From NCBI GenBank assembly GCA_000004985.1, contig GG738886.1: a stretch of 64,000 nucleotides of DNA; one strand, given 5' to 3'. Below the pieces are notes generated by a model. It had not been told where the DNA came from. It worked only from the letters and a program-made list of their open reading frames with translations, and ran no database searches. The stretch comes from Naegleria gruberi (Eukaryota). The position numbers were made by a program, and so were the translations under genes. Position 1 is the stretch's first letter, and each line of letters begins with the position of its first letter. Positions 2,946 to 54,005 of this stretch are shown piece after piece.

Positions 2946-3508
2946 TTTTTTAATAATTCCATCAAATTATTTTTAGAAAATAGAACGTGTTTAGAATCAT
3001 GGGTGATTTTTAAACAAATAAAACTAGTTATTAAGGATTTAAATTAATATAATTCCCGAGCCAGTGAGAATGAATTATAAAGAATAATAGAATATATTAT
3101 CGAGATTATTCTTATTCCAGATAATATAAACGAAAATTCATTTCTTTTAATGTGGGACCTTAATTTTTTATACAACAAGGAATGGTGAAAGTGCATTATT
3201 GAAGTAAGCAAACCATAGGAGTTATATTTCCCCTAGATTCTTTATTTCTCATTAAAAAACCATTTGGTTGTTATGGGAGCTATCATAAAAAGGGCAGAGC
3301 TGTTGAGTCCTTTCATTATTTGGGCATTGATCGGCTTATTGGGAACTTTAAATGGAACTTTGATTTTTAACTACGATATCGTATAGTCGTAATGGTAAGC
3401 AGTAAGTAGTTTAATTGGGATATTGCATTAAACACTTTGATTTCTTGCCTTCACTCTTAATATTCGGAAGAATAAGGAACCTTATATTTTAAAATTTTAT
3501 TTTTTTTG

Positions 3509-5486: not shown

Positions 5487-7529
5487 TTACTTTGCAGAGC
5501 ATTTTGTACAATTACAATCGAATCTATATTGTTCCTTTAGTTTTTTCTTTCTTTCATCGGTGGAGAGATTTTCGTCAATATAACTAATGAGGATTTCATC
5601 TCCCTTAGATAATGCAGCACTAGTTGAAGAGTTACTTGTAATAGTTGTTGTAGTAGTAGTATCAGTATTACTACTGGATAGATTGCTGTCGGTTGTAGGA
5701 GTTATTGAAGAGGCATACACACTCACTTGATGTGTAATATAATCAGAGACACTGACAGCATTTGGATTACATGAGTGATTCATGCAATTGTGAATGGCAA
5801 ATGCACCCATTCCCTTCATGCTTAATGATTTGAGAGTTTCAGTTCTTGTAGCTTCCTCTTCAAAGTTTTTGCAATGCAAGAGTTCGCACACCTTGTTTCG
5901 TATTTGAACCTTCTCATGTGCAGCAAGATGCAACTCTGTAATTGGATGGATGGTCGAGCAATTTTGCAATATTAATCCATGAAGAGAACGATACTGCTTA
6001 ACACTACACAAAATATTCAATATTTGAGAAATTTGTTGGGCATGAGATTTTAAATATTCTGCGTTCTCAGCTGAATTACTGCACTCTGTGAAATAACCAT
6101 CTTGAATCGCATACTCAATGCTCTCCTTAATTAATTGAGCAGAAAGTGAGTCGAATGGATGAGGTTCTTCATGTTGAACAAACCTCTCAAATCTATGCAA
6201 TGCCTTAGAAAAAGATACGAGAAAAACATCCTCACTTGGACTCTCTAGTAATCGATTAAGGAAACAAATCCATTCGACAACGTTTTTAGATGATTGTAAT
6301 ATGAATATGTATGAATAAAATTATCCGCAACACTTACCGTTCTGTAAAGAGGAGTCAATATCTTGGTACTCACGTAATAAACTCCTTAAGAAATCCGTAA
6401 ATACTGTAGCCATGATTTTTGCAATCAGGAGTGGAGCTGTTCTGTGTTGTTTGACAGTTAATCTTTCCAGTAATGTGATTGGATGGTCTGTTGTTTTACT
6501 GGCGTTGCTGCTTGTGGCAGAGTCTGATAATTGTGGGGTTACACGATCTCTACTGCAGAGTACAGAGTGATATTGATTCCATGATTTCTCTCTGCACAAC
6601 TCACAGCAGTAGGTCACTGCTGAACAATGTTCACATGAAACAAATGTCTTGGCTGTGGTCAATTTTTCTGAGAGAATTTCCTTGCATTCCTCGTCTTTCA
6701 TTATTTGACCAATGAATGGAAATTGTTGAATTGTCTTTTCACTGAAAATTGTTTTCATACAATGATGGCAATGGTCAATCTTGGCATAGAATGGGTTTTC
6801 TGAACTGTCAGTAATGACCTGACTGCAGAGAGGTTCCTCTCTAAACAATAATTGTCCACTGTGTGCTTTATCTGCATTCAAACAGACAACCTTTCCCTCC
6901 TCCTTATTCTTAAACTTGACAGAAATGACATCTTGTCCCTCCTTGAGTAGAGAATTCATTTCCATCTTATATTCTTGTTCCATCATTAAATTGGAGAGTT
7001 TTTCCAAGAGTGGTCCAACCAATTGTTCCCAATCACTCATTGATTTTTTCAGATAATTCTCCTGAACTTGAAATCTTTGTTGTGGAGCAATTTTTTCATT
7101 ACTCATGATGGATAGACACTTTCTCTTCATCCATTCATGGAGTGGAGCCAACTCTTGCAAGATAAAATCCTGAATTTCACTCAATGAATTATTTTCCTGA
7201 TTTTGATGAGTCATTTGAGCATGCTGTTTGATAAGAGTTTCACATTTGTGAATTAATACTTTTTGAGTCAATTCGAACCATTTCAAATGTTTATCAGAGA
7301 GTGGTGCACTCAATATAAAATCGGAGGGAATTTTACTTTCGTTTGTTGTTGTGGTAGTTTCTAAAGAGGATGATGAATGAACACTTCTCAGTCTTTCCAA
7401 TAATTGATCAATCTTTTCTGATACGTTATCAGCATTGGATGATGATGATGGTGTATTATTGCTGGTGGATAATTCATTGAATTGTTTAGTGCAATTATCA
7501 ATAAATTCATCAAATGTTGGTGATGACAT
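5487..7529 (-). CDS. SMYD-like lysine methyltransferase (MYND zinc finger + SET/post-SET), 2 exons: 7529..6338, 6244..5487 (650 aa)
   Basis: The ATG is at 7529. The MYND finger reads CHHCMKT...CEHCSAVTYCCELCREKSWNQYHSVLC. The SET signature is NHSCNPN and the post-SET is FDCNCTKCS. The intron is 6337-6245 (GTAAGT...TACTAG, 93 nt), phase 1. This is the only AG in the required phase, and the splice keeps an open frame. Confidence 0.8.
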
Positions 7530-12079: not shown

Positions 12080-15000
12080 TTATTCGTAAACCTCAGCAAA
12101 GATAGTGTTGGAACGACCAAATATTTCTGGTGAGTACATTTCTTCACATTTGGTTGGTGGAATAATGAAGGATCCGATTTGAGTGGCACGACACAAATGT
12201 TTGAAAGTGTGAGTTCCTTCCCAGAGCAAACTGGAGAATGCTTCAACACGTTCATCTCTACTATTGACATGTTCATACCATGGATAGTTCCACCAACATC
12301 TAGATTTCTTAACTTCACCTGAAGGAGCGTTACCTTTCAATTCAGGATTAATTGGTTCCAAACCAGCAGGTAAAAAGTCAACCAAAGCAACATGATAACG
12401 TCTACTGGTATTAGTGAATGTAATGATAACTCTAACCAATTCACCAGCTTTAAATTTCCAACAGTTTCTTGCCTTATCAAATTGAGCATGAGATGGATCA
12501 GTAACACCCTCATAGCTTCTCTCAATTTGGAATCCATAATCAAGAGCTGGTAATAATAAATTCTTAGGAGCATAGTCCATTCCAATTCTATAGTACAATC
12601 TACCAGGACCTTCCTTCAAGATGGCCAATGTTTGTGCACCTTCAGTGGTAGTAAGTTGTCTCATTGGAATAGTAAGAACATTTTCATCCTTATTTCTTCC
12701 CTTGAAAACTTGTTCTCCACAATAATCTTCTCCAAGCCACATCTTGGCAGTGAAATCAGGAGTGACACCTTCAAAGACATGGAAATAACTGTTGAGAGCA
12801 AGAAGGATGAAAACATTTTCTTGAGTATTGCCCCATCTTCCCTTCTTCTTATGAGCTAAAAGTCCCTTGACAACCTTTGGAATGAGATTATTTTGTGGTA
12901 CCATATGAATGAGCATTTCCAAACAAATTCCATCAGTTCTTCTATCACTGTGCAACATGATAAGCTTGCTGCTTTGCTCATCTCCATAGCTTGTAACAAA
13001 GTTGGCTGTTTGAGCAGTTTCATTGACTCTCATTAAAATATAATTCACAATTTCAGTCGATTTTGTTGTGGCTTCCTTTCCATTGGCAAAGAACATTGCT
13101 GAAGCAGTCCAAGACAAAGTTTCAAGACAAGTATCCTTCAATCCACATTCTGAATATAATTGGTCAGCTTTTTGTTTGGCTCTTGAATCTCCCAATAGGG
13201 CGGCAACATAATAAGCATATGATCTAATGGCATATTTTGATGAAGGAGAGTAATATGTATCACGAATATAATTCTCAATATCACAGAGGAAATTAGTGAG
13301 TTTGGAAACAACATTATTATTGAGAGAATAACCTGCAATCTTGGCTCTAGCAAAGGCATGACCTACGTGGCAAGAAAGGTAAGGACTGACTGAATAATCA
13401 CTTCTGTAAGTCCACCATCCGAATCCACCATTTGGAAATTGTCTTCCATTCAAAATACCCAACGATAATTGTACAGTAGAGTTAAGCATAATTGAGCTTG
13501 GAATATCCTTGACCTTGAATGCTTGAAGTACATCCTTGAGAGCAACAATTGATAAAATCTTACTTGACAATTGTTCACAACATTCAAAGGAATAGTTGTA
13601 AACATAAAGGAAGGCATCAGTCAAGGCAGACAATGCTGTACTACTGGTAGTGATTTGTAAGCCACCAAATTGAGGATAGATATTTTCTGGAGCCTTAACT
13701 GGTTGGAATGTAGTGCAATCACCATCCAATTCACCATAATGAGCAAATGCTTCTGTGGTTGCTGGTGTGAATACTCTGAGTTCCTTTTCAACAGCATCAG
13801 AAAAGTTGATCAATTCGGAAACAGAAACAGCAACTTGGAATTTAGAAATACCAACCTTGGTTGCTTGCATTGGGAATCTCAATTCAGCTCTCTTAAGAGC
13901 AGGGATTTTAACATTCAAACCTCTCTTGGATGGATCCAACAATTCGAGTCCATCATAGGCAACAGCAATATGAACATTCAAATCAATAAGGGTTTGATTT
14001 TGTAAAACACAAGCAAATTCTGCCTTATCACCAAAGTTCAAAAATCTTGGAAGGGAAGGTCTAATTGCTAGTGGCAATTGTGCAACAATTGAAGATTCTC
14101 CCAAGCCGTACAAACTATCTAGTTTGGTAGAAACAGCTGTAATTCTGTATCTCGTCAAATTGTCAGGTAATTTGAATGGCACTCTGGCCTTGCCTTGAGC
14201 ATCTGTTACACATACTGGACTAAAGACAGCAACTGGATTGAAATTCTTTCTGACAACAATGGCAGATCCAACTTCCTCACCTCCTTCACATCCACCAGCA
14301 TCGTCATTACATTCTTCGCACTCTTTTTCCTCACATCTCTTTTTGGATTTCTTACAACTTTTCCTTTCTTGCACTTCTTCTTGGCAATCACAATCATCAT
14401 AACAACAACAGGAACGACATAAACATCCTTCACACTTGCAACATTCACATTCATCATCATCACATTCTTCCTCATCAGAACTATCTTCAGGAGGAGATTG
14501 AATGTTGATATTATCAAAACTCTTGACAAATACGTGGTCTCTCAATGAGAACTCTGAGAAGCTTTGGCCAGTACCAACTATGAATGTGCTCAAAGGATTA
14601 GATATTCTATAGCCAGTCAATGAAAGAACAGCTTCATCAACAGCAACGAGACAAACCTCACTTCCAGCTTGTGGTTTAGAGTTTTCCTTGTCAGTTACCA
14701 AAACATCAACAAAGGTCTCAACACCTGGAGTAACAAATTGCTTCTCTGGAGTGACCAATACATCGAGTTGATGCACTTTGGATGAGACACCAATATAACA
14801 AGTTCCATTTGCGTACGCAGGTTGTTTTGGGAGGTCGAGAGGTAATCCAAGAGAATCACTTCTTGATTCACTACCTTGGAGCATTACACTAACTGTTACA
14901 TTTGGAATGTGTTCTTTGGTAATTTTGAGAGTGAATTCAGTTGATCCAACTTCTGGATCAATGGTGATTGGAATATTATCGATTACAGAATTGAGGCAAA

Positions 15001-18000
15001 CAGTAACAACACCATTAGCCTTACCGTCGAATGGAGATTGAATCAAAATTTTGGCTTCTTCTCCAATTTCATACATTCCTTTGTCTGCAACCAAGAGGGC
15101 TTGTTGCTTTGAAAGTCTTGAACCAACAACATCCTTCTTTGATTTACCACCAGTTACGTATAGGGAGTTATTTGAAGAGTTAGTTAAACCGGTTTCTGTA
15201 TCCTTAATTCTCAATGTGAACTTGTAGTTACCACCCTTATCGAAACTAATAGGATATTTGACTGGTTCAGATTCAGACTTGAATACCTTCTTGAAAACTT
15301 CAACAGATTCATGAACAACACTGAACCCCTTCTTCTTTTCAACGGTTGTTGTAGCAACCAGTTCCATATCAATACCAGGAATAGTATTACCTTCAAGATC
15401 AGTGGTAACCATGAATAAATTGGTTTGAACATTTGGTTTAACAAACATCTTTTCAATCTTCATTCCACAATAATATTTGCAAGGGTGAACAGTAAATGTA
15501 GTGGAATCATTAATAGTTTGACGATTAATATCTTGAACCGATGTTTCAACAGTAATGTTCATTGGAGATTTCTCTTGTCTTTCGGTTTCATCGAAGAGGA
15601 TTGCAATTTCATGTTCACCATCAGAATTACAAACACCTTCAAATGTAACTGGTTTGTAATTTTCACTTCCATAAGTATCATAACACCAATAACGATAAAA
15701 TGGATTTGAGATGTAAGTGGAGAAGTTGAAACCAGAAAAGTTTGGTGGGGTATAACTTGTCTTTGATTGTTTGATAACATAGGAACACTTTGAACCAGAG
15801 AGACCTCCACCTGAGTAGTATGCTGCTTGGGTCTTGAGAATTGTTAAGTTATTAACAATATATCTGCATGGTGGGACAGATGTTGAGACTGTAAATTCTG
15901 GAGTACGGAACTCTTGTACATTAAAGTTTGTATGCATTGTCCTACCGTTGAACTCAATGGAATGAGAGCCCAAGTTAACATTGTCTGGAATTGAAAACTT
16001 AATATCAAAGGAACCATGTTCTGAGATGGTGTATTTTCCAGTGTGATATTTTGCACCTCTAGAATCTTTAACAATGTATTCATAAGTTCCCTTTTTTGGT
16101 AGAGTTGGAATAGTTCTTGATCCGTACTTTTCAACCTTGAGTTCTCTACAAATACCCTTGATGAAAATCTCTTCTCCAGGTTTATAGAGTCCTCTATCGT
16201 TGAAAATATTATATGCTAATCTATCATCAATTCTGTAGTGATAAAGGTATAAATCTGGAATAAAGCAGGTATCATTCAAATAAGATCCAATCAGTGTATA
16301 TTCACTTCCGTTTGAGGTGTGACTAAGAACAGCAATTCCTGTTTCAGAGTCTGGTTTTGTGCTAAATGATGGAAGGAATTTCTTTTGTTTGAAACTAACA
16401 TCAGATTTGATGACAGTTCCATCAATTAAAGAATTGGCCCAACAGTAAACATTACCTGTTCGTGTATCGAAAAAGCCATCCATTGCCATCTTTGTCACCT
16501 GAATCCAGGAAATGTAAACTGGTCTGTATTTCCAATTATCTTTCCAATGTGTTTTGGATGGTTCAACTGCAACCAAAAGTTGACCTAACATGTCATTTGG
16601 ATGTTGTAAGTATTGGGTCAAGTCAATTTCTGTATCAACTGGTTCATCTGGTTGACCATTGGTATTTACCATAGTGTCAAGAACTTTTTTTCCAGAAAGA
16701 GATAATGTTGCATTGGAATAAGCATCATAGTAGAAAACATTGTTTGAATAATCACCTGGTTTAACTTGATAAACTTGGACATGGATAGCTTCAAGATTTA
16801 CACTGAATACGGAGAAGGATGGTTTAGTATTGACAGTAGGATCAATAACCATCATTCCGGTCTTGTAGGCTTGTAAAGATTGAGCTGCTGGTCCAACTTG
16901 GAAAGTAAAGTTATTTTCTCCTGCAAGTTTTTGTCCCCAAACATCTGTTATTTGACCAGAGAGTTGAACTTGGTATGTGGTACGTCCCTTAATATTACCA
17001 GATATTGTCAAGTAATTTCCAGATGGATTAATACGTAATCTTTCAATAGGTGGTTGAATACTTATATGTTCCTCATTTAATAATTCAATATCAATATTAT
17101 TACTAAATGTGAAAGAGAATGGTTCCAATGGAAGCTTTCCACCAGTATGGGAAGTAACTTTGAATTCTGGATAGTTTGTAGCTGTGAAGGAAATATCTTT
17201 TTCTGTTCTCAAAGGACCTTCAATAGATCTGGCTCCTTGCAATAATGTTATAGCGAGGGTTTCTGACAGGGCTACTCTCCTACTTGCTACATCAATTTCA
17301 ATCCAAACATGTCTATTTGGAGCAGAATTTTCCAATTTGTAATTTACAGAATTGTACAATGAGGATGATCTCTTTTCCAATGAAGATTCTTTAAGCTTTC
17401 CTTCAATATAACTCTTTACAACTGAAGTACGGCCATCATTTTGAACCAGCTTGCAAGAGTATCCAGGTATATTTACACTAGAAAAGATTTGGTTTGGATC
17501 AATATCTTGATCAAACTCCATATAAACAAATGGAAATTCGTTAATTGGAACTGCATGGTAACTATTTGGAAGATAGTTGAGCATTGTCAATCTAGGTGTT
17601 TCAAATTTAAAGGAAACATTCTTATCCAATACTCCTCCAACACTAGACTTGGTTTTTTCACAATCAATAGTGACTGTGTATTCCGTAGACATGTCAAATC
17701 TATAATTTGGTTCAAAGAATAAAGTCTTTGCACCCATCCATCTAAATCTACCACCATTCTTTGGGAATGGTTCAATTTTTACAAAAGAAAAATCTTGATC
17801 ATGAACATCTTCAACACCAGACACAGCAACCATTGGCTGAGAGAATGTGATGGAAATATGTGGCACTGATCGATCAACTGGACCTTCTGGCAAATATCTC
17901 ACCACTGCCAAACTTGATCCCAACAATGCTTCTTCTTCCTTTCTCACTTGTTCTGGTTTTTCCAATTTCTCTTCTGGTGGGAATGGAATTTCATTAACAT

Positions 18001-18379
18001 CAGCACTTCTTGGAGGTTTGAGGGTTTTTTCTCTCATGAAAAAGTCACCTTCTTCTGATGTTGATTTTTGAATTTGTGGCAATCTGGCCAATAATTTCTC
18101 TGTCAATTCATCACCAAGAGATTCAACACTTGCACCACTCTTTTGATCCTCATCCTTCTTGACAGAAGTTGCCTTTGATCCAAGTAAAATCATGGCAGTA
18201 GAATCTTCAGGTGTTGGCTCCCTAACATGAATATTCAACCCAACAGTGTAATCTTCATTATTTGCACCAAGAATGCTTGTCTCACTGCAAGGTTCCTCCT
18301 CTTCATAATCCATATCATCATCATAAAACACCATTTTCTCTCCTATTAAAATTAAATAAAAATTATAATTATCAATCAA
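12080..18379 (-). CDS. Alpha-2-macroglobulin / thioester-containing protein family member (2,099 codons from the TTG at 18379; 2,084 aa from the first ATG at 18334), single exon
   Basis: Uninterrupted 6.3-kb ORF. The thioester-region motif is YNYSFECCEQLSS (nt ~13571-13585), cf. PYGCGEQNM. The thioester-domain (TED) motif is RQFPNGGFGWW (cf. RQxDGSFxxW). The C-terminal motif is VALVDFLPAGLEPINPEL, which I recall as typical of bacterial-type A2Ms. A 17-Cys acidic insertion lies at nt ~14275-14500. No signal peptide follows the first ATG. Confidence 0.85.
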   Translation of the reverse strand: MIDNYNFYLILIGEKMVFYDDDMDYEEEEPCSETSILGANNEDYTVGLNIHVREPTPEDSTAMILLGSKATSVKKDEDQKSGASVESLGDELTEKLLARLPQIQKSTSEEGDFFMREKTLKPPRSADVNEIPFPPEEKLEKPEQVRKEEEALLGSSLAVVRYLPEGPVDRSVPHISITFSQPMVAVSGVEDVHDQDFSFVKIEPFPKNGGRFRWMGAKTLFFEPNYRFDMSTEYTVTIDCEKTKSSVGGVLDKNVSFKFETPRLTMLNYLPNSYHAVPINEFPFVYMEFDQDIDPNQIFSSVNIPGYSCKLVQNDGRTSVVKSYIEGKLKESSLEKRSSSLYNSVNYKLENSAPNRHVWIEIDVASRRVALSETLAITLLQGARSIEGPLRTEKDISFTATNYPEFKVTSHTGGKLPLEPFSFTFSNNIDIELLNEEHISIQPPIERLRINPSGNYLTISGNIKGRTTYQVQLSGQITDVWGQKLAGENNFTFQVGPAAQSLQAYKTGMMVIDPTVNTKPSFSVFSVNLEAIHVQVYQVKPGDYSNNVFYYDAYSNATLSLSGKKVLDTMVNTNGQPDEPVDTEIDLTQYLQHPNDMLGQLLVAVEPSKTHWKDNWKYRPVYISWIQVTKMAMDGFFDTRTGNVYCWANSLIDGTVIKSDVSFKQKKFLPSFSTKPDSETGIAVLSHTSNGSEYTLIGSYLNDTCFIPDLYLYHYRIDDRLAYNIFNDRGLYKPGEEIFIKGICRELKVEKYGSRTIPTLPKKGTYEYIVKDSRGAKYHTGKYTISEHGSFDIKFSIPDNVNLGSHSIEFNGRTMHTNFNVQEFRTPEFTVSTSVPPCRYIVNNLTILKTQAAYYSGGGLSGSKCSYVIKQSKTSYTPPNFSGFNFSTYISNPFYRYWCYDTYGSENYKPVTFEGVCNSDGEHEIAILFDETERQEKSPMNITVETSVQDINRQTINDSTTFTVHPCKYYCGMKIEKMFVKPNVQTNLFMVTTDLEGNTIPGIDMELVATTTVEKKKGFSVVHESVEVFKKVFKSESEPVKYPISFDKGGNYKFTLRIKDTETGLTNSSNNSLYVTGGKSKKDVVGSRLSKQQALLVADKGMYEIGEEAKILIQSPFDGKANGVVTVCLNSVIDNIPITIDPEVGSTEFTLKITKEHIPNVTVSVMLQGSESRSDSLGLPLDLPKQPAYANGTCYIGVSSKVHQLDVLVTPEKQFVTPGVETFVDVLVTDKENSKPQAGSEVCLVAVDEAVLSLTGYRISNPLSTFIVGTGQSFSEFSLRDHVFVKSFDNINIQSPPEDSSDEEECDDDECECCKCEGCLCRSCCCYDDCDCQEEVQERKSCKKSKKRCEEKECEECNDDAGGCEGGEEVGSAIVVRKNFNPVAVFSPVCVTDAQGKARVPFKLPDNLTRYRITAVSTKLDSLYGLGESSIVAQLPLAIRPSLPRFLNFGDKAEFACVLQNQTLIDLNVHIAVAYDGLELLDPSKRGLNVKIPALKRAELRFPMQATKVGISKFQVAVSVSELINFSDAVEKELRVFTPATTEAFAHYGELDGDCTTFQPVKAPENIYPQFGGLQITTSSTALSALTDAFLYVYNYSFECCEQLSSKILSIVALKDVLQAFKVKDIPSSIMLNSTVQLSLGILNGRQFPNGGFGWWTYRSDYSVSPYLSCHVGHAFARAKIAGYSLNNNVVSKLTNFLCDIENYIRDTYYSPSSKYAIRSYAYYVAALLGDSRAKQKADQLYSECGLKDTCLETLSWTASAMFFANGKEATTKSTEIVNYILMRVNETAQTANFVTSYGDEQSSKLIMLHSDRRTDGICLEMLIHMVPQNNLIPKVVKGLLAHKKKGRWGNTQENVFILLALNSYFHVFEGVTPDFTAKMWLGEDYCGEQVFKGRNKDENVLTIPMRQLTTTEGAQTLAILKEGPGRLYYRIGMDYAPKNLLLPALDYGFQIERSYEGVTDPSHAQFDKARNCWKFKAGELVRVIITFTNTSRRYHVALVDFLPAGLEPINPELKGNAPSGEVKKSRCWWNYPWYEHVNSRDERVEAFSSLLWEGTHTFKHLCRATQIGSFIIPPTKCEEMYSPEIFGRSNTIFAEVYE

Positions 18380-21093: not shown

Positions 21094-22786
21094 ATGTCCT
21101 ATGATGATACTGATCATTTTCCTCAACAACATCGATGGCTAACAGGTAAATTCCAATCTCAAACCAAAGGGAAGCTTAAGTGGATGAAAAGAAGGGATGA
21201 ATTGTTTGAGAAACGTTCGTCATTCATTCCGATAGAATTTTGCCATGATAAGGAATTGGTTTTGCACATGTTTAAAACAATAGAAATAGATGCACATGTA
21301 TTTGATTGCATTCAAGCTGATGTGATAGACAATGATTTGCTTGTTAGAATTATGAATAGATTGAATGATAGTTCAGTTAGATCTGAAGCAATAGATAATT
21401 TTATAGAACTTTTCAAAAGGTATAATATTACCTTAGACGGAAATTCAAAGGAAGGAAAGGAATTTGTTTCAGCCTATGAGATGGAAAATGGCAAGTATGA
21501 AACAGCCTTAAAACTATTCATAGCAAGTGGGAACGTCTCTAATATATTAAGACAAGATGTTGATTTCATTTACGACGTATTTAAACATTTTAATGGAGAT
21601 GAAAGAATGTTACATATTGTACTTTATTTTTGTATGGCAGATAAGGATGCTTTGCTTAGGTTCGCAGAGATTAATCCACATGTGGTGGCTTGTGCATCAC
21701 AAGAATTTCAACAAGATGAGAACTTTCTTAGAGAACTCATTGATACGAACACTGACTATCTGAAACATTTAATATTTGCTACCGAACACGACAAGAATAG
21801 TGCAAAAGCAAAGAAATGCAGGGAAATATTATCAAATGATTCGTTGAGAAGAAAGATGGAGAATGACGAGAAGTTTATACTACATTATTGTGCTGTCGAT
21901 CCTGAACTTTTCAGGTTGATCTCTCCAAAATTACTAGTTGACAAGAAATTCTTATTCAACATATTGGAAAAGATAGAGAAATGCCCTTTTGCATTGTCTA
22001 CAGTTTTGAATCATATTCCAGAAGTCATGAAAAGCGATTTTGATATTATGTTAAAGGCAGTTAAGATAGATCCTATCTCTTTTATGCATGCTTCTGATCA
22101 GCTAATGCATGACCAAGAATTTGTATTGAAATGTCTTGGACGGTATTCTGATCTAATATTTCCAATGATTCCTAATGAATTCCTTCAAGATAGAGAATTC
22201 CTTATGGAGATGTTGGAAATAAATGGAAGCTTACTTGAGTATGCTCCTTCTGAATTCCAAGGTAAGTTAATAATATTACACATTCTAACAATGTTAAAAA
22301 GATGATGAAGAGATGGTTCTTCAAGCCTTAAAATCTGACGGTGGTTCAATTGATTTTGTCTCTACACGGCTTAAAAACGATAGAGATTTTCTATTAAAAG
22401 CCAAGAAGCAAACAAATCTATATGTGAACCTGCTATCGAGGGCTATTGTAAATGATGAATTCTTACTGGAATCATTAGAATCACCATTTGTGGATGATGT
22501 TTATGAAGAAATAGAAGCACGAGGCTTAAGGGACAATTATGACTTTATGAAAGAAGCCATAAAAAGAGTGTATAGTTACACTGAATTACCAGATAATTTT
22601 AAAGCGTTGAAGGAAATGTCATTATTGGCAATATCAGTTGATGGTAGAGAATTAAAGTATGTTCACCATAAGGATGACCTTGAGGTTCAAAAGGCTGCCG
22701 TGAACCAAAATGGATATTTCATTAAGCAATCACAAGAATTGTTGGACTATAGGTTAGAATGTGCATATTTTGGATGCAAGATTTGA
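21094..22786 (+). CDS. Protein made of DUF4116-like repeats (D-R-E-hydrophobic-VL-x-AV-x-x-N/D-G-x-x-L-x-Y-A), 2 exons: 21094..22261, 22302..22786 (about 550 aa)
   Basis: The intron is 22262-22301 (GTAAGT...AAAAAG, 40 nt), phase 1. The splice yields ...APSEFQDDEEMVLQALKSDGGSIDFVSTRLKNDRDFLLKA, continuing the repeat register. Repeats include DFDIMLKAVKIDPISFMHAS and DQEFVLKCL. The start may lie upstream, since the frame is open from 21058. Confidence 0.7.
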
Positions 22787-28667: not shown

Positions 28668-30425
28668 TTAATTTGAATTTCCTTTTAGAACTTGAGAGAG
28701 TTCAATAATTTCTGGTGATACTTGTAGCCGATGGGAAACATACTCCAAGGCATTATAATCCCTCTTCATTGCTTCAATGACAATTTCAGCACAATCCCTC
28801 ATTTCATTGGAGGCATACTTTAGGGCTAGACCATCATTTTGCACTGCCTTCATGACAACCTCGAATGTATTTCTCCACTCAAAGCTTGCAAATCTGAGAG
28901 CATATCCTTCAGAATTAACGGCTTCCATGATAATGTCTCTATTAGAAATTGTCTCTTCTGTGTCGTGTGTTGTTGGCTTACTTCTGTACTCTGTATTCAC
29001 ATATTCCAACATGGAGCCTTGTCGTTTCACTAATGCCAAAACAACCTCTCTGTCTTTCATCAATTCGGGGGATATATAATTGAACGAATTAGGATTAATT
29101 TCAATAAATCTCAATACAAAGGATTTGCAAGATCTTAGTCTTTCAGAGGCAAAAGTAATATTTTGGGACAGTAATACAAGTTCTTCATCTTCTCCCCAAT
29201 GTATGATAATGTCTGGATCTCTTGCTTTGTATAGGCATCCAAATGCAGTTGGATCTTGGCTAACAGCCGTCATAACAATTTCTCTATCTCGTTTGAGGTC
29301 ATCACTCGCTAAAATAAGATTATGCCCATAATTTCTAACAGCTTGCAATACAATCTCTCTATCATCCCAAAAATCTGGGGCATAGTTGAGTGATTCTCCA
29401 CGATTGGAAACAGCTTACAGTACCAAATCTCTGTTTTGCTTCAAGTCATCATGCAAGTATTGTAGTGACGAGCCAAATGACGAAACTGCTAATAATCCAA
29501 ATTCTAAAGTACCTCTAATTCTCTCTGAAAATTCCTTAATGCACATTCCATCTAATGGAAGAACTATCCTTGCCAGAGAATCATTATCTCGTAATTTTTC
29601 AGAGACCACCTTTATCACTGCAGGATGTTTCTGGGCAACTATCTGTACAATTTCTAAATCATTATTATACATATCCACAAGATATTTGAAAATAGCTGGA
29701 TTTCTTCTAACACATTTCAAAATGAAACCCCTATTCGATTTAATTTCCTTTGAAATAAAAGCAAACGGCTCTGAATCTTTCTTTATCACAAATGTAATAC
29801 TCTTATAGAGCGAACTTTTCAAGCTCATTAAATTCAAAAAATCCAAATTATTTACAGCACTATCCTTAAACATATCCTTCCTAAATCTCAAAATCCAATA
29901 CTTGAAATGTTCAAATTGCTTTCTCCAAGAAACCATTGAATCACACATTGCTATTCCATCTCCAATCGTCCACACCAACTTTCCTTCCGAATTGACTTGA
30001 CTCGTCCACTCTTCAACTGGCCATAAACTTTTACTGGGATGAAACTCTTTAATTGCCTCTTGTTTCCTCTCATGCTTTGATGGCACAATAAACAATTTGA
30101 AAAACTCTTGAGCATATAATGAATCAATTCCCATCACCTCCATTGTTTCGTTCAATTTTTCATCCTCATCTTCCAAAGTCAAATTATTGTATTTCCTTCT
30201 CTCCATTCGTTGTATGAGGAATGAATTAATAATCAGGAGCCAATTCCTAAATTCTCTCTTCTCCACCTGAATGGCCAAGTATTGAAAAAGCCTACAAGAA
30301 AGTGCAAAGCTTCTCCTCGACCTATCATCTAGAAATTCAATTATACTCTGAATCAATTCGGAAGGTAAATTGTTTACCATCTCAATCATCATTGTATTAT
30401 TATTAGCACTAACGAGTAGAGACAT
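28668..30425 (-). CDS. F-box + DUF4116-like repeat protein interrupted by a single in-frame TAA at 29415-29417 (possible pseudogene, programmed readthrough or sequencing error)
   Basis: The ATG is at 30425. The F-box is LPSELIQSIIEFLDDRSRRSFALSCRLFQYL. The DUF4116-like repeats (DREVVLALVKRQGSMLEYV, NRDIIMEAVNSEGYALRFAS, TFEVVMKAVQNDGLALKYAS) continue in the same frame on both sides of the TAA: ...KQNRDLVL*AVSNRGESLNYAPDFWDDREIVLQAVRNYG... The TAA replaces the consensus-variable residue between VL and AV, which is A/E/K/Q/T in the other repeats. Confidence 0.65.
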
Positions 30426-46109: not shown

Positions 46110-46465
46110 GGATTAGTATTATCTGTTTCCATTTCAATTATAATTGGACAATTTAAATGTAAATATTTGGCATTCTCACTATTTATGAAATCAATTTGCT
46201 GATTTTTAATATCCTCTATTTGTCCAATCGCACTTGGAAGCACAATAATTTTGTAAACTTTGTATCCTTGGAAAATTAAATGTATGCGATCATTCAACAA
46301 ATTGTTGTCGAATCCTATCTATTTGTTTGGTATTCGAATTGCTAGTTTCAATGGATACCTTCTCTCTAAATTGTTTCTTTCCTCCACCTTGATTATCTCC
46401 AGAGTGAGGATAAACATGATTGGTGCGATTGGATAGAATAATTGAATCTTTATTCTTTCAAAAAA

Positions 46466-48358
46466 ATGCATTCGAATAGTAATACTTCGGACCCATCGAA
46501 CAATGATCAACACCACCACGATAATGGCACAACTTTTGAAGAAATAAAGAAGTTAAGTTCTTCACCAACTCTAGCTCGAAAGGAAAAGGCACCTTCGCTT
46601 GGCACCTCTCCTTCAAACAATAATTCAATAATCCAATACTTTATTCGAAAGCGTTCAAAAAGTATTGACCTCAAGGAAAGTAAAAGCAACCATCGAGTCA
46701 TGATGCCACTCCACTGTATCCTCAAACACAATTATCATGAAAAGATTTTACGAGAATCAACTAATCCTTCTCTCCTCAATCGTTCACTTTCTCTGGCGAA
46801 TCTAACCTCAAGTCCAAATTCACCTCTCGTTCAAAGTCCATCCTCTGAAAATCATCAACCTCCTCTCCTGATTCATTCTCCACGTGGTGGTAGAAGAGAT
46901 TCAGTTTCCTCATCAGATAGTTCATCAACTGAAGATTCTTCATCCTCTTCATTTGTTACTTCATCATCTGACAGTCAATCCACACTGAAATCACCACTTT
47001 CAATGAAAGAAACAGATTTTGGAAATGTAAACTTTATCAGAGAAACATTTACTGATTATCTATCTCAAACCAAAGTACTCGGCATTAAACAAGCAAATGT
47101 TAAATTACTATTTTTGGATCATTTTTATGAAATTTCGAGACCATTCTCAAAGAAGGGATTTGAAAATGGAAAGGAGGTGATTCGATTGATGGAACAGTTT
47201 TGTAAATGTTTTGTGAATTTTAGTATTGATAGTTATATAATAGATATGGAGTTGATTGAGGAGAAAATTCATTCGGGAGTTGAATTTCCTTATTTAAGTC
47301 ACTTGTATTCGAATTCAAATTTTGGACCTGTGAGACATGAAGCTTTGGAAGCTGTCATGATTGAGGTTTGCAACAAGTTGTTAAAGAAACAAAATCAAAA
47401 TACAGAAATAGTCACAGGACATGTCGAAACTGAACTAATAACCAAAGAAGAAACTTTGCTTTTGAAAGATGTAACAGAAAAAATACAACTCGTATGTGAA
47501 ATGTTCTATACTGAGCTTCAGGATGTCTTTTCCTATTTTCAAGCTCACAAAAAGTATAGATCCATGATTAGTGTGTGGCTCAAGAAGGGCATTGATAATC
47601 AAACTATTCCACTTCATGTACTCGATCTTTACAAGAAGAAACTCGAAGGGGATGAAAAGGCTCTCAATACTTTCAAATTTTCTGATGAAGATTTCAAGGC
47701 AAAGAATATCATTGATAAGGATTGGAATTTTGCCAAGTATTTCTCTCAGGATATTTCCACTGATTGGTACGTTTCGTGTAGAGATGAGAAATATGTACAG
47801 TGGAGTACGAAAACTGAATATTCGTATAATGATAAGGATCTGAGAGCTTCAAAATTGATTGGAAATTTGAATTATCCTCTCGAAAAGATTGTAAAATCAT
47901 TCAATACTGAAAAACATTTAGCTCAATCATTTACTAACGTGAAATTTCATGAGTATAATCCAATTAATGAATCTAGCTCTTTGCAAAAGTATCCATCAGG
48001 AATTTTAACGTCTAAATTGAAATTTGGACCACTTTTGAAGAAGAGAAGTGTTAAGGTAATTTTCTCGACCAAAACGAAATTTATTGGAAATGAAATGTCA
48101 GAATTTATTCTATTCTTCAAAAGTTGTGATTATCAGGAATCAGGAAAGGACATTCCAGTCACAGTAATTGGATGCAGAGTTTTTACAAAACTTGACAAGA
48201 ATCGAACAAGATTCTTGCAAGTTCGAATGGGTAATCTGGGTGGATTATTGAATACATCTCTAATTATTCACAACAAGTTGTCATTTAAATTTGTTTCATC
48301 ACAACAATTTTTTTTTTCATTGAAGGAATATTTTAGGAAACACCTACCGCCACCTTAA
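46466..48358 (+). CDS. Ser-rich N-terminus + globular C-terminal protein (about 630 aa), function unknown
   Basis: The first ATG is at 46466. Uninterrupted ORF. The C-terminal ~200 aa might have a lipid-binding START/Bet v1-like fold (weak). Confidence 0.6.
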   Translation: MHSNSNTSDPSNNDQHHHDNGTTFEEIKKLSSSPTLARKEKAPSLGTSPSNNNSIIQYFIRKRSKSIDLKESKSNHRVMMPLHCILKHNYHEKILRESTNPSLLNRSLSLANLTSSPNSPLVQSPSSENHQPPLLIHSPRGGRRDSVSSSDSSSTEDSSSSSFVTSSSDSQSTLKSPLSMKETDFGNVNFIRETFTDYLSQTKVLGIKQANVKLLFLDHFYEISRPFSKKGFENGKEVIRLMEQFCKCFVNFSIDSYIIDMELIEEKIHSGVEFPYLSHLYSNSNFGPVRHEALEAVMIEVCNKLLKKQNQNTEIVTGHVETELITKEETLLLKDVTEKIQLVCEMFYTELQDVFSYFQAHKKYRSMISVWLKKGIDNQTIPLHVLDLYKKKLEGDEKALNTFKFSDEDFKAKNIIDKDWNFAKYFSQDISTDWYVSCRDEKYVQWSTKTEYSYNDKDLRASKLIGNLNYPLEKIVKSFNTEKHLAQSFTNVKFHEYNPINESSSLQKYPSGILTSKLKFGPLLKKRSVKVIFSTKTKFIGNEMSEFILFFKSCDYQESGKDIPVTVIGCRVFTKLDKNRTRFLQVRMGNLGGLLNTSLIIHNKLSFKFVSSQQFFFSLKEYFRKHLPPP

Positions 48359-48587
48359 GAAAATGGCAGCAGAGGAATTTTCTAAATTGATGGATATGAT
48401 TAAGAGTGCTGAAAAGGAAGGATTTCCAATGCCTCCAATTGAGAATAATCATTTAATGAGAATTTGGATTGATTATTGTAAACATTATTGTCAAGTAGAT
48501 GTTTTGGAAAAGTACAATAATAATGAATGAGTTTCATCACGAAGTTTTTGGATTTCTTAAATATTTGAGCATCTGCTTTATCATTTA

Positions 48588-51514
48588 TTACTTTTTGATT
48601 AAATGCTTCTTGTAAATGTTCACTCTCTGCTCTGGTGTTAACTCGTCGAATATTTGTGGATCCCTCTGGAGGATATCGTCATAATTCCTGGCCAAGAGGA
48701 AGAAACAATAATCCTGCAAGACAGCATCTCCAAATTCATTTGCAATTTCCAAAATATGCAATGCTGTATATTCATCAAATTCAAATTGTTTGATAGTTGC
48801 TCTGGCCTTATCTTGTAGCAATGACAATTCCAACAAGTGACTCAGAACATAAATTTCCACAGCATTTCCAGAATTTAAATCCAAAGGATAACTCGGACAA
48901 TAAATGAAACTCATCACTACCACCAAGCTCTGTATACTGATAGAGTCCATGATAAGAATTCTCTTTTGAGCTTCGAAAAATTGAGAGTTAAATGTGGCAG
49001 CAAAGTATTTCGATGAAATACAAAGGATCATTTTGTGTACATTGATGGATCTGTAAATTGGTGGGTTGTAAGTGTGATCTGGAGCTAAAATTCTAACGAG
49101 ACCTTGTTTTACATCTGGAACAGAGTTTGGATCGTTAGATAGCATTGATCTAAATTCTTCAATATCTTCAACATCTTCATTTGGACTAATCTTGAGGAAT
49201 GATGGTAATTCCTTTTCCAAAGTCTTGAAGTTATGAGAGAGGAATGAACTCAATGAAGGCTCTCTCAGTAATGATTGGACGAGTAGAGTAATTTTGAAAT
49301 GAACAGCCATTTGAAAAATATCCTTAAAATGTTCAGATTTCAAATCGGTAGCATCAAACATTCCAGAATAAATATATTGCAAGACTCTTATGAAAGCTCT
49401 CTTGAGATGTTTCACTTCTGGCACATAATTAATTCTGATATAAGTTAAATCTCCATGATTCAACTCATAGGAATCCAAATTTGAAGAATTAACATCTAAA
49501 CCTAGCTTTCTCAGTTCTGCAACCATGATCATCTTTTTTAATTCTGGAAAACGTTGAAGGATGAGTTTGTGTGCACAACATGGAAGTTTTTCTCTTTCTG
49601 TTAGGACCTCTGATTCTTCCTCTTCTGGAGTGAAAATGAAAACCAAGTCTGCATCATCTGGCTGGGTAGTTTCCAACCATTTAAAGTATGTCTCTGATTG
49701 TGCAACAACTGCTGATTTTTGACTCTTCAGAATCTTATCACTTCTAAAACATCTTACCGAGTGTTCAGATGTAATCGATTTCTTTTGGAAGAGTATTCTA
49801 TTCAAGAATGCTCCATATGAATTGAATGTTAAGGAACGAGTTGAACAACCACCCAATAGAACATAGGAGTCAGTAAGTGTCTGAATAGTACCTGCGGTAG
49901 CAGCACTATCAAAATCATTATCAGGGACAGAAGGGACAATAAGCCACCTATTTTCCTTAATGTTATATTCAAAAAAGTTAGTATTCCAATTGGAGCCATC
50001 AAATCCTCCGTACAGTACCAGTGTATTAGAATCTCTCATAAGTAGTGTGGCCATTGTAAGCTGGGGCACAAAATTAGTCTGAGTTGTTTTGTTTGTCCAT
50101 AATTTGGTTTCAATATCGTAGTAGTGCATGTCATTGAATATTTGTCCATCATTATGACCTCCAAATATGAAAATTCTTCAATAGTTACAAAATGAATATT
50201 TGTTTGATTAATTTACCAACTTACCTTCCTTGAGATTGAGTAATAGCAGCACCAGCCCTTGGTGAAATATCAGAAGCAATAGATTCCACTTTTTCAAAAC
50301 TTGTAAATCCACCATGCCATTCATAACAGTTAAAATCATTTGTATATCCAGATTTTCCATAACCTCCAAGTGTGTACAATCTATTGTCATAAACACAGGA
50401 GGAATGTCCACAAATTGGACTAGCAAGTTTACCTGCTGTTTGCCATTCAATTCCTGCACCTGTGATTCGTCCAGTATAAATTTCAGCTGAATAAGTCTTT
50501 GGATCTGTTAAACCTCCAATAATCACAAATCCACCCTTCATTCCATTGAAAGAATGGAATAACCTTGGACTACAGGTTGAACTTTGCTTGACTTTCTTTA
50601 CATTAATGTTCTTTCCTTCCTCCAAAGCAACTTCGAACATGTCATTAGAAAGAGCCCCATTATCTAATATCCATTCCATCAATCAATTCTAGAATCAAGT
50701 CAATTAAATACTTACAAATACCTCCCCAAGTATAAACCTTTGAATCCATGTTACAACTTGTCATCATCATTCTTTGCATTCCCTTCTTCTTCTCAACACA
50801 TTCCTTTGTAAATGAAAGTGATGAATAAAAACTATCCACAAATGCATAATAACCCTTCTTGGTATCTTTCTTATAGTGCAAAATAGTACGTTCCAACTTT
50901 TCAAGATCATCAGTTGGATTTGATTGCTTAACCTTTGGTTTCTGAATGTCATTTCCCTTATTCACCAATTCTGAATCAAAATCCTTGATTGCTGAACTCT
51001 TTTCCACCAGAAAATCCTCAACATCTTGAATGAGAATAAACATGACAACTTGTCCAATCGAATCCCTTGCCTTATTATTCAAAATCTCAAGTAAATCTTC
51101 AATTTCCTTCTCTTGAATTTCTTGTGCCACTCTTCTCATCTCTTTAAACTCTTCATGTTCTTCATACATTTCAGGAGGACAATAAATAAAAACCTTTTCC
51201 ATGGCTGATTGGATTTTAATTTGGGGCACATCACTAGTTGGATATCCCGAAGGAAATTCAACACTCAAAATTAAACCAGTTTGAAACAAGTGATACAAGT
51301 GATCAGTCTTCTTCGAGGTGATTATTTGTCTCTCTATTAATGATGGAATTTTCAATCGGAATGACAATAAATTATCTTCAATGTTATTGCCATGATCAAG
51401 ATTATTATTATCATCATTAGAACAAGACGGCGAGAGTTGCTGAATATCATCAGCATAAATCGACTGTAAAACTTGAAACTCTTCGAACTGGGCTGCTTGA
51501 TTGTTTTCTTCCAT
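48588..51514 (-). CDS. RWD domain + Kelch repeats + two BTB domains (LZTR1-like core with an N-terminal RWD), 3 exons: 51514..50716, 50663..50225, 50175..48588 (941 aa)
   Basis: The ATG is at 51514 (MEENNQAAQFEEFQVLQSIYADD, RWD). The introns are 50715-50664 (GTAAGTAT...TATTAG, 52 nt, phase 1) and 50224-50176 (GTAAGT...TTGAAG, 49 nt, phase 2). The splices restore Kelch motifs (KVYTWGGIY|NGALSNDMF and ..ITQSQGR|IFIFGGHNDGQIFNDMHYYDIETKLW). The BTBs are CCAHKLILQRFPELKKMI and SINVHKMILCISSKYFAATF. Confidence 0.75.
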
Positions 51515-51698
51515 ATTTTTAAATTGATTTGTTTTTTTCTTAGAAATGAACTTGAGAATTGTGAAAACGTGAGTTGTAAAACGAAATTGAAGAAGAAAAT
51601 GGTTCAAATTCAAAGATGAAAGTGAATGTGCATTTTCATGAATGCATTTGAAGTGTTTGGAATGATGAAAAAAGAAAGGTCTCTTGAAATTATTATTA

Positions 51699-53900: not shown

Positions 53901-54005
53901 TTTTTTTCTTGGATTTCTCTTTATTTGGAAGTTTTAAAAAGGTCATGAATAGTATTTAAATGGAATGAGTTTTACAAAATTGTGTTATTTTTATTTACAG
54001 TATTT

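What the first reader, a model, noticed from the sequence alone, without database searches (positions are those of the whole stretch)
29380..29450. Single in-frame TAA inside an F-box/DUF4116-repeat gene (nonsense pseudogene, readthrough, or error)
The minus-strand reading frame runs uninterrupted from the ATG at 30425 to the stop at 28668, except for one TAA at 29415-29417. The repeat register continues unchanged across it: ...KQNRDLVL*AVSNRGESLNYAPDFWDDREIVLQAVRNYG. The stop occupies the one variable position of the repeat, which is A/E/K/Q/T in sister repeats. A single transition from CAA (Gln), AAA (Lys) or GAA (Glu) would create it. A GT-AG intron through this point (CT|GTAAGC...CCCCAG) breaks the frame, so splicing does not rescue it. 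This is either a very young pseudogene in an expanding family, a stop-codon readthrough site, or a base-call error.
Basis: seen in the sequence. Interest (0 to 1): 0.6.

Follow-up and report, generated by a model that had tools for sequence, protein, structure and literature searches.

The report
Nonsense codon hidden by doubtful intron
A Naegleria gruberi F-box/DUF4116 repeat gene carries one real in-frame TAA, which the public gene model hides inside a 60-base "intron" that looks like coding sequence, so this is most likely an ordinary recent nonsense allele or a sequencing error.

Summary
The minus-strand frame from ATG 30425 to the stop at 28668 is open except for TAA at 29415-29417. An F-box lies upstream, and DUF4116 repeats stay in register on both sides.

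The window is Naegleria gruberi, a eukaryote. The locus is already annotated as NAEGRDRAFT_70806 (565 aa).

That intron is probably a gene-model artefact:
- Its GC is 0.43, against 0.15-0.29 in 14 credible local introns.
- Its donor is GTAAGC, whereas all 14 use GTNNGT. GTAAGT never occurs in 49 kb of exon, while GTAAG[A/C/G] occurs 21 times.
- Its 20 codons add 22-26 bits to the DUF4116 Pfam score.
- 101 alternative in-frame GT/GC-AG deletions could also bridge the stop.

Readthrough is unlikely. TAA ends 19 of the 22 complete ORFs tallied here, the context is TAA-G, and no downstream RNA structure is predicted.

My ranking is: recent nonsense allele (0.5), base-call error (0.25), nascent intron created by the same mutation (0.12), readthrough (0.03). 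Interest is low.

The parts
28668..30425 (-). The whole F-box/DUF4116 reading frame: ATG at 30423-30425, terminal TAA at 28668-28670. It corresponds to the annotated N. gruberi gene NAEGRDRAFT_70806.
   Evidence: translation. P0001 is identical except for a 20-aa deletion; exact spliced mapping.
30273..30374 (-). F-box motif (aa 18-51).
   Evidence: PF00646 scores 23-24 bits against a cut-off of 20.5. PF12937 scores 21.5-22.4 bits, below its cut-off of 24.3.
29433..29735 (-). DUF4116 repeat units 1-4 (aa 231-331), upstream of the stop.
   Evidence: 84.6 bits, 4 stretches. (unit table). (AF2 pLDDT above 90, with helix triplets).
29361..29432 (-). Repeat unit 5 (aa 332-355, RDLVL*AVSNRGESLNYAPDFWDD), which contains the stop at its variable sixth position.
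   Evidence: 18.3 bits in the leave-one-out HMM, with 0 of 2000 shuffles as high; these codons add 22-26 Pfam bits; residues 6-11 are called helical by DSSP, as helix B of a unit, and 13-15 are marked helical but fall below the element-length cut-off.
29415..29417 (-). The in-frame TAA (codon 337), in the context CTG TAA GCT.
29359..29418 (-). The 60-nt GT-AG interval (GTAAGC...GATGATAG, phase 2) that the public gene model uses as an intron. It is judged a probable gene-model artefact.
   Evidence: mapping of P0001. (GC 0.43 against 0.15-0.29 in real introns). (donor +6 is C, against T in 14 of 14 real donors). (the interval encodes repeat sequence).
29375..29418 (-). It is not a multiple of three and breaks the frame.
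   Evidence: sequence. It is absent from the list of in-frame solutions.
28716..29360 (-). DUF4116 repeat units 6-12 (aa 356-570), downstream of the stop. They are fully intact.
   Evidence: 220.4 bits, 6 stretches. (AF2 mean pLDDT 94.5, pTM 0.86).

Best explanation
The window is nuclear DNA of the amoeboflagellate Naegleria gruberi. The gene encodes an F-box protein whose substrate-binding part is a DUF4116 alpha-solenoid of about 13 units of 24-25 residues. By inference from the F-box family, it is an SCF ubiquitin-ligase substrate receptor.

In the NEG-M reference, one point substitution changed the variable sixth residue of unit 5 into TAA. The ancestral codon was CAA, AAA or GAA.

The stop is not removed by splicing. 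The 60-nt 'intron' in the public model is what a gene predictor produces when it must bridge a stop, and the sequence is ordinary coding repeat.

The stop is not read through either. The allele therefore encodes a 336-residue truncated protein with the F-box and four repeats, or nothing useful.

The lesion is very recent, and possibly heterozygous or strain-specific, because the 248 codons downstream show no further damage.

Shown here: the stop, the repeat register, the coding nature of the 'intron', and its poor fit to local introns. Inferred: that it is not spliced, that it is a true mutation rather than a consensus error, and the SCF function.
For: Identity of the locus:
- P0001 (NAEGRDRAFT_70806, 565 aa) matches the frame exactly, minus the 20 codons at 29359-29418.

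The 20 'intron' codons are coding sequence:
- The DUF4116 score is 266.3 bits unspliced against 244.6 bits spliced. For the local segment it is 107 against 80.5 bits.
- Unit 5 scores 18.3 bits against an HMM of its sister units, and 0 of 2000 shuffles reach this.
- AF2 places the usual helix B on these residues (6-11); 13-15 are marked helical but are too short for the element list.

Poor fit to local introns:
- I compared 14 credible introns in the window. Five come from the annotated neighbours P0049, P0050 and P0051. The rest come from ORF-joining scans.
- Those introns are 40-93 nt long, with GC 0.15-0.29 (mean 0.24).
- Their donors are GTAAGT (7), GTAGGT (4), GTATGT, GTTTGT and GTGAGT, so T is at +6 in 14 of 14.
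- The candidate has GC 0.43 (z = +5.2 against the 13-intron set). Its donor is GTAAGC. Its composition LLR is below that of every real intron.

The donor type is common and tolerated in exons:
- In 49 kb of exon sequence GTAAGT occurs 0 times. GTAAGA occurs 9 times, GTAAGG 9 times and GTAAGC 3 times, all inside continuous ORFs. One of these lies at 28981 in this same gene.

An in-frame bridge is expected by chance:
- 101 GT/GC-AG deletions of 30-400 nt restore the frame.

A recent real mutation is quantitatively plausible:
- 5.35% of substitutions in this gene create a stop.
- An environmental N. gruberi contig (L001) differs from the window by 1.0%. At that divergence a neutral copy expects 0.94 nonsense hits, and it has a 67% chance of no second stop in the downstream 744 nt.
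- The same comparison shows another ORF-truncating difference in the reference, a 70-nt insertion at 48285-48354.
Against: - No read, EST or RNA-seq data were available, so neither the base call nor the absence of splicing is shown directly.
- The interval has a perfect GTAAG donor core, a typical length (60 nt) and a TAG acceptor.
- AF2 predicts that the spliced product still folds. The junction helix is 14 residues instead of 10, with pLDDT about 91.
- The intron sample is small (14) and comes from a single 64-kb window. Nine of the 14 were chosen by my own criteria.
- The 21 exonic GTAAG[A/C/G] sites are assumed to be unspliced, not shown to be.
- A single lesion with perfectly intact downstream repeats is also what a sequencing error would look like.
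Confidence: 0.5

Rival explanations
1. Base-call or consensus error. The true NEG-M sequence has a sense codon (CAA, AAA or GAA) at 29415-29417, the gene is an intact intronless 585-codon ORF, and the annotated intron is an artefact built on the error.
For: - There is only one lesion. The downstream 248 codons are fully intact, with 220 bits of DUF4116 and AF2 pLDDT 94.5.
- The read-through translation fits the family better than the spliced one.
- No independent copy of the locus exists in any searched collection to confirm the T.
Against: - From general knowledge, substitution errors are rare in a multi-fold Sanger consensus, and there is no homopolymer or repeat context at CTGTAAGCT.
- Real strain-level variation of about 1%, including another ORF-truncating difference, is demonstrated in this same window. 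A true nonsense allele is therefore at least as likely a priori.
Confidence: 0.25
2. The annotated intron is real but newborn. The same substitution that made TAA also made GTAAG, a 5' splice-site core, from G|CAAG, G|AAAG or G|GAAG. The spliceosome now removes 60 nt in frame, at least partly, using the AG inside GAT AGA. This rescues a 565-aa protein that lacks most of unit 5. It would be the first step of the intronization model, in which a premature stop is removed by latent splice sites.
For: - The G-TAA-G context creates GTAAG.
- 60 nt is a multiple of three and lies within the local intron length range of 40-93 nt.
- The spliced protein is predicted to fold, with a 14-residue junction helix at pLDDT about 91.
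- The public model uses this intron.
- There is a precedent for a C>T 'nonsense' variant that in fact creates an exonic donor and an in-frame deletion: MAP3K1 c.2254C>T (PMC7567082).
- The model predicts short, 3n, stop-containing segments in regions that tolerate loss (PMC2586383).
Against: - The donor has C at +6, where 14 of 14 local introns have T.
- GTAAGT is completely purged from exons, while 21 GTAAG[A/C/G] sites sit in continuous ORFs. This implies such sites are not efficient donors.
- The -1 and -2 positions are CT, where G or A is usual at -1 (11 of the 13 donors listed).
- By my reading of the sequence there is no YTRAY-like branch motif in the 3' half and no T-rich tract before the AG.
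- A G-TAA-G context arises by chance in roughly 3-5% of TAA nonsense mutations (my estimate from the base frequencies).
- Gene predictors routinely invent such introns, and there were 101 in-frame options.
Confidence: 0.12
3. Programmed or high-level stop-codon readthrough. Ribosomes decode the UAA as a sense codon and make the full 585-residue protein.
For: - The downstream frame is open and well conserved as repeats.
- The stop lies at a position that tolerates many residues.
Against: - TAA ends 19 of the 22 complete ORFs tallied in the window, and three of those end in TAA-G. The code is therefore standard and this context terminates.
- From general knowledge, UAA followed by a purine is among the least leaky contexts, and known readthrough motifs follow UGA or UAG.
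- The 121 nt from the stop onward show no unusual structure (z = -0.51).
- No reassignment or readthrough system is known to me in Heterolobosea.
Confidence: 0.03

Closest known systems
NAEGRDRAFT_70806 (Naegleria gruberi NEG-M predicted protein, 'F-box domain-containing protein', 565 aa)
   Same: It is the same locus. Every residue is identical to the window's frame.
   Different: The public model deletes codons 337-356 as a 60-nt intron. The evidence here indicates that these codons are repeat-coding sequence, and that the model hides an in-frame stop.
Unitary (non-duplicated) nonsense pseudogene or null allele, masked by a gene-predictor intron
   Same: There is a single disabling substitution in an otherwise intact ORF. 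The predictor bridges it with the nearest in-frame GT-AG pair.
   Different: There is no second lesion and no measurable decay, so it cannot be told apart from a segregating null allele or a consensus error. No intact orthologue or allele was found for comparison.
Intronization and nonsense-associated altered splicing (Catania & Lynch model, PMC2586383; MAP3K1 c.2254C>T, PMC7567082)
   Same: The substitution that creates the stop also creates a GTAAG donor core. Removal would be a multiple of three, short, and in a repeat region likely to tolerate it.
   Different: There is no transcript evidence. The donor departs from the local consensus at +6, a position that appears to be discriminating in this genome.
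F-box proteins with C-terminal repeat domains (SCF substrate receptors) and the DUF4116 (PF13475) alpha-solenoid repeat family
   Same: The F-box motif scores above the Pfam cut-off. About 13 DUF4116 units are present. AF2 gives a regular solenoid with three short helices per unit. DUF4116 has been modelled before as an alpha-solenoid (PMC8078820).
   Different: No solved structure resembles it closely: the best Foldseek PDB E-value is 4.5e-3, and the hits are generic helical repeats. Function and substrates are unknown. The nearest homologues are only 29-34% identical.

Membership tests
F-box protein (PF00646) | An F-box motif of about 40-50 aa that scores above the curated threshold. | tested here: met
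   PF00646 scores 23.1-24.2 bits against a cut-off of 20.5, at aa 19-51.
F-box protein (PF00646) | Binds Skp1 and assembles into an SCF ligase. | not testable with these tools
   This needs biochemistry. AF2 confidence over the N-terminal 200 residues is low (pLDDT 40-60).
DUF4116 repeat family (PF13475) | Tandem repeats that match the Pfam HMM above threshold. | tested here: met
   266.3 bits (cut-off 24.9) in 8 stretches, with matches on both sides of the stop.
DUF4116 repeat family (PF13475) | Alpha-solenoid architecture. | tested here: met
   The AF2 models have pLDDT above 90 over the repeat region, with helices of 10, 6 and 4 residues in each 25-aa unit. This agrees with PMC8078820.
Spliceosomal intron of the local N. 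gruberi type (for 29359-29418) | GT...AG termini, length within the local range, and a reading frame preserved after removal. | tested here: met
   GTAAGC...ATAG, 60 nt (local range 40-93), and in frame.
Spliceosomal intron of the local N. gruberi type (for 29359-29418) | A donor hexamer of the form GTNNGT, with T at +6. | tested here: not met
   The candidate donor is GTAAGC, whereas 14 of 14 credible introns have T at +6. GTAAGT occurs 0 times in 49 kb of exon, against 21 GTAAG[A/C/G].
Spliceosomal intron of the local N. gruberi type (for 29359-29418) | AT-rich, non-coding composition. | tested here: not met
   GC is 0.43, against 0.15-0.29 in real introns (z = +5.2). The Markov LLR is -0.213 bits/nt, below all 14 real introns.
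Spliceosomal intron of the local N. gruberi type (for 29359-29418) | The sequence does not encode part of the protein family in frame. | tested here: not met
   The 20 codons add 21.7-26.5 Pfam bits, and the unit scores 18.3 bits in a leave-one-out HMM.
Spliceosomal intron of the local N. gruberi type (for 29359-29418) | Spliced transcripts exist. | not testable with these tools
   No EST or RNA-seq data were reachable. Neither the spliced nor the unspliced product is on record in the assembly index.
Programmed stop-codon readthrough | A leaky stop codon and a stimulatory 3' context. | tested here: not met
   The stop is UAA-G. TAA ends 19 of the 22 complete ORFs tallied in the window, and three of those are TAA-G.
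Programmed stop-codon readthrough | A stimulatory downstream RNA structure. | tested here: not met
   MFE is -26.7 kcal/mol, against -24.95 +/- 3.46 for shuffles, giving z = -0.51.
Pseudogene | A disabling lesion in a formerly coding frame. | tested here: met
   One TAA at codon 337 of 586.
Pseudogene | Accumulated further lesions, or relaxed constraint relative to an intact orthologue. | tested here: inconclusive
   There is no second stop or frameshift. No orthologue or close paralogue exists for a dN/dS test, since the best hit is 29-34% identical. Intact downstream sequence is expected if the lesion is younger than about 1-2% divergence.

The most novel reading that the evidence does not exclude
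One point mutation simultaneously created a premature TAA and a GTAAG splice donor inside a repeat-coding exon. The cell now splices out 60 nt in frame. This would be a newborn spliceosomal intron caught at the first step of intronization, while it still has fully exonic composition and still encodes a recognisable protein repeat.
Probability: 0.1. Interest if true: 0.6.

Novelty: new member of a known kind. Interest (0 to 1): 0.15.

Why it matters
Mostly this is an annotation correction. NAEGRDRAFT_70806 and its UniProt and EukProt copies probably describe a protein that is not made. The true allele is either truncated at residue 336 or, if the T is an error, 585 residues long with an extra repeat.

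It also gives a practical rule for N. gruberi gene models. In this window, real introns are AT-rich and 40-93 nt long, and they start GTNNGT. GTAAGT is purged from exons. Annotated introns that break these rules and encode in-frame domain sequence should be suspected of hiding stops.

Only the minority reading, a nascent intron, would be of wider interest, as a natural snapshot of intron birth.

Tried and rejected
Initial misreading:
- I first read the window as bacterial or giant-virus DNA, because it has dense ORFs, 34% GC and a bacterial-type alpha-2-macroglobulin. One search showed it is N. gruberi.

Searches for an independent copy of the locus, all empty:
- A genome-contig scan. This collection holds only prokaryotes.
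- Exact-product look-ups for the spliced protein and for the 336-aa ORF.
- A metagenome DNA pattern around the stop.
- A metagenome protein-pattern scan.
- A literature search for the locus tag.
- The genome paper (Cell 2010) is not held.

Attempts to recover annotated neighbour proteins:
- A 4.7-kb chimeric protein query timed out.
- Two shorter chimeric queries returned only three N. gruberi models and one environmental homologue. The intron reference set therefore had to be completed by ORF-joining scans.

Structure and other checks:
I used the C-terminal window ORF instead.
- AF2 of the spliced product did not discriminate, because it is also predicted to fold.
- The Foldseek PDB search gave no specific relative.
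- Three other single in-frame stops between long ORFs (at 6321-6323, 36304-36306 and 36694-36696) are ordinary AT-rich 3n introns, not further examples of this finding.
- RNA editing and stop-codon reassignment were rejected on general knowledge and on TAA usage.

Full report
**1. The observation**

On the minus strand the frame opens at ATG 30425-30423 and runs to TAA 28670-28668. It spans 586 codons and has exactly one internal stop. That stop is TAA at 29417-29415 (codon 337), in the context CTG TAA GCT.

Pfam finds an F-box at residues 18-51. It finds DUF4116 repeats on both sides of the stop: 84.6 bits upstream and 220.4 bits downstream.

I cut the C-terminal part into twelve of its 24-25-residue units. 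The stop falls at the sixth position of unit 5. Sister units have K, Q, T, A, E, L or R there.

Unit 5 scores 18.3 bits against an HMM built from the other eleven units. The best of 2000 composition-matched shuffles scores 10.6.

Two details are wrong. Only CAA->TAA is a transition. And the frame-breaking 44-nt GT..CCCCAG interval is not the only GT-AG option.

**2. What the locus is**

A search of 5.8 billion proteins returned NAEGRDRAFT_70806 of Naegleria gruberi, named 'F-box domain-containing protein'. It is 565 aa long and lies on a 358,576-bp scaffold. It is identical to the window's frame except for a 20-residue gap.

The window is therefore eukaryotic nuclear DNA, not bacterial or viral as the dense ORFs suggested.

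Exact spliced mapping shows that the public model removes 29359-29418 as a 60-nt phase-2 intron: ACT|GTAAGC...GATGATAG|AGA. This joins ...RDLVL to EIVLQAV....

The next-best homologues are only 29-34% identical, so there is no recent paralogue.

**3. Is the annotated intron credible?**

I assembled 14 credible introns from the same window as a local reference set.
- Five come from the annotated neighbours P0049, P0050 and P0051.
- The rest come from scans for GT-AG intervals that are needed to join long ORFs.

The reference introns have these properties:
- Length is 40-93 nt.
- GC is 0.15-0.29, with a mean of 0.24.
- Donors are GTAAGT (7), GTAGGT (4), GTATGT, GTTTGT and GTGAGT, so T is at +6 in 14 of 14.

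The candidate compares as follows:
- Its length (60 nt) and its GT-AG ends fit.
- Its GC is 0.43, which is z = +5.2 against the introns (13-intron set) and in the top 10% even of exonic 60-mers.
- Its donor is GTAAGC.
- Its first-order Markov composition score lies below that of every real intron.

In 49 kb of exon sequence GTAAGT never occurs. GTAAGA (9), GTAAGG (9) and GTAAGC (3) all sit inside continuous ORFs, and one of them is at 28981 in this very gene. This implies that +6 T matters for donor recognition here, and that GTAAG[A/C/G] is tolerated as non-spliced exon sequence.

The most telling evidence is that the 20 'intron' codons are repeat-coding sequence:
- The DUF4116 score falls from 266.3 to 244.6 bits when they are removed. 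On the local segment it falls from 107 to 80.5 bits.
- AF2 of the downstream window ORF (pLDDT 94.5) puts the usual helix B on residues 6-11 of these codons; 13-15 are marked helical but are too short for the element list.

Finally, 101 different in-frame GT/GC-AG deletions of 30-400 nt would bridge the stop. A predictor finding one therefore carries no weight.

An old, established intron can be excluded. The choice is between an artefactual intron and a newborn one.

**4. Readthrough**

TAA ends 19 of the 22 complete ORFs tallied in the window, and three of those end in TAA-G. The 121 nt from the stop onward fold no better than shuffles (z = -0.51). Nothing supports readthrough or codon reassignment.

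**5. Real mutation or error?**

This cannot be settled here, because no independent copy of the locus was found.

Indirect evidence favours a real, recent allele.
- An ENA metagenome contig (L001, run ERR1078381) is 99.0% identical to window 47308-51571 and retains the introns. A second N. gruberi strain therefore differs from the reference by about 1%.
- In the F-box gene, 5.35% of possible substitutions create a stop. At 1% divergence a neutral copy expects 0.94 nonsense hits. It keeps a 67% chance of no second stop in the 744 nt downstream.
- The same strain comparison shows another ORF-truncating difference in the reference. It is a 70-nt TTAA-flanked insertion at 48285-48354, which ends ORF 46442-48358 57 codons short of the end of the L001 reading frame.

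According to PMC9928731, which cites the genome paper, Naegleria is assumed to be a heterozygous diploid. The reference may therefore carry one null allele of a heterozygous pair.

**6. The minority reading**

The substitution that made TAA also made GTAAG. Removal of 60 nt is in frame. AF2 predicts that the spliced protein still folds, with a 14-residue junction helix in place of the usual 10 (pLDDT about 91).

This matches the first step of the intronization model (PMC2586383). It also resembles a human case in which a C>T 'nonsense' variant acted as a new exonic donor (PMC7567082).

Against it stand three points:
- The +6 C in the donor.
- The CT at positions -2 and -1.
- The 21 apparently unspliced GTAAG[A/C/G] exonic sites.

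By my own reading of the sequence there is also no branch-like motif or T-rich tract before the AG.

By my rough estimate from base frequencies, 3-5% of TAA nonsense mutations would fall in a G_G context by chance. I give this reading about 0.1.

**7. Function**

By family membership, the intact protein would be an SCF substrate receptor with a DUF4116 alpha-solenoid. No solved structure is specifically similar: the best Foldseek E-value is 4.5e-3, and the hits are generic helical repeats. DUF4116 was previously modelled as an alpha-solenoid (PMC8078820).

The truncated allele would keep the F-box and four units.

**8. Verdict**

The TAA is real in the assembly. The public model conceals it with an intron that fails three of the tested features of local introns. 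The most likely explanation is an ordinary recent nonsense allele (0.5). A consensus error follows (0.25), then a nascent intron (0.12) and readthrough (0.03).

The finding is of low general interest. It is useful as an annotation correction and as a rule for spotting stop-hiding introns in N. gruberi.

Noticed in passing
window 48285-48354 (+), compared with L001 at about 3208-3211: The reference carries a 70-nt insertion flanked by TTAA on both sides. It is absent from a 99%-identical environmental N. gruberi contig. The insertion is 3n+1 in length and ends ORF 46442-48358 prematurely; in L001 the ORF runs 57 codons past the junction. No GT-AG boundaries are possible, so it is not an intron. 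It may be a TTAA-target transposon footprint or a microhomology indel.
   Followed up: partly
L001 (ENA ERZ929261 / ERR1078381, PRJEB11402, contig k127_61845), matching window 47308-51571: A metagenome assembly contains genomic DNA 99.0% identical to the NEG-M reference, with the introns retained. This is a second N. gruberi strain, and its raw reads could genotype the TAA.
   Followed up: partly
all exons of the window (49 kb): GTAAGT, the main 5' splice-site hexamer, occurs 0 times in exon sequence. GTAAGA occurs 9 times, GTAAGG 9 times and GTAAGC 3 times. By my estimate about 9 GTAAGT would be expected. This suggests strong purging of cryptic donors and a decisive role for +6 T.
   Followed up: partly
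window 12080-18379 (-): An intronless 2099-codon ORF encodes an alpha-2-macroglobulin with the bacterial MG10 domain (PF17973, 104 bits), inside a eukaryotic scaffold. It is a candidate horizontal transfer from bacteria.
   Followed up: no
window 6245-6337 (-), 36265-36315 (+), 36662-36709 (+): Three other places have a single in-frame stop separating long ORFs. They are ordinary AT-rich introns whose lengths are multiples of three (93, 51 and 48 nt), with GTAAGT, GTAGGT and GTATGT donors. They are useful contrasts to the candidate.
   Followed up: yes
window 21094-22786 (+): A second DUF4116 gene lies 6 kb away (P0049, 550 aa). It has a genuine 40-nt intron at 22262-22301 (GTAAGT, GC 0.20, CTAAC branch motif) inside a repeat. 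It has no F-box hit.
   Followed up: partly
window 51683-51776 (-), the junction of ORFs 50660-51715 and 51699-53933: These two long ORFs overlap by 17 nt in different frames. No GTNNGT donor was found to join them; the only candidates were GTTGGC, GTCAAT and GTTTTA. It could be an unusual intron, a frameshift, or two separate genes.
   Followed up: no
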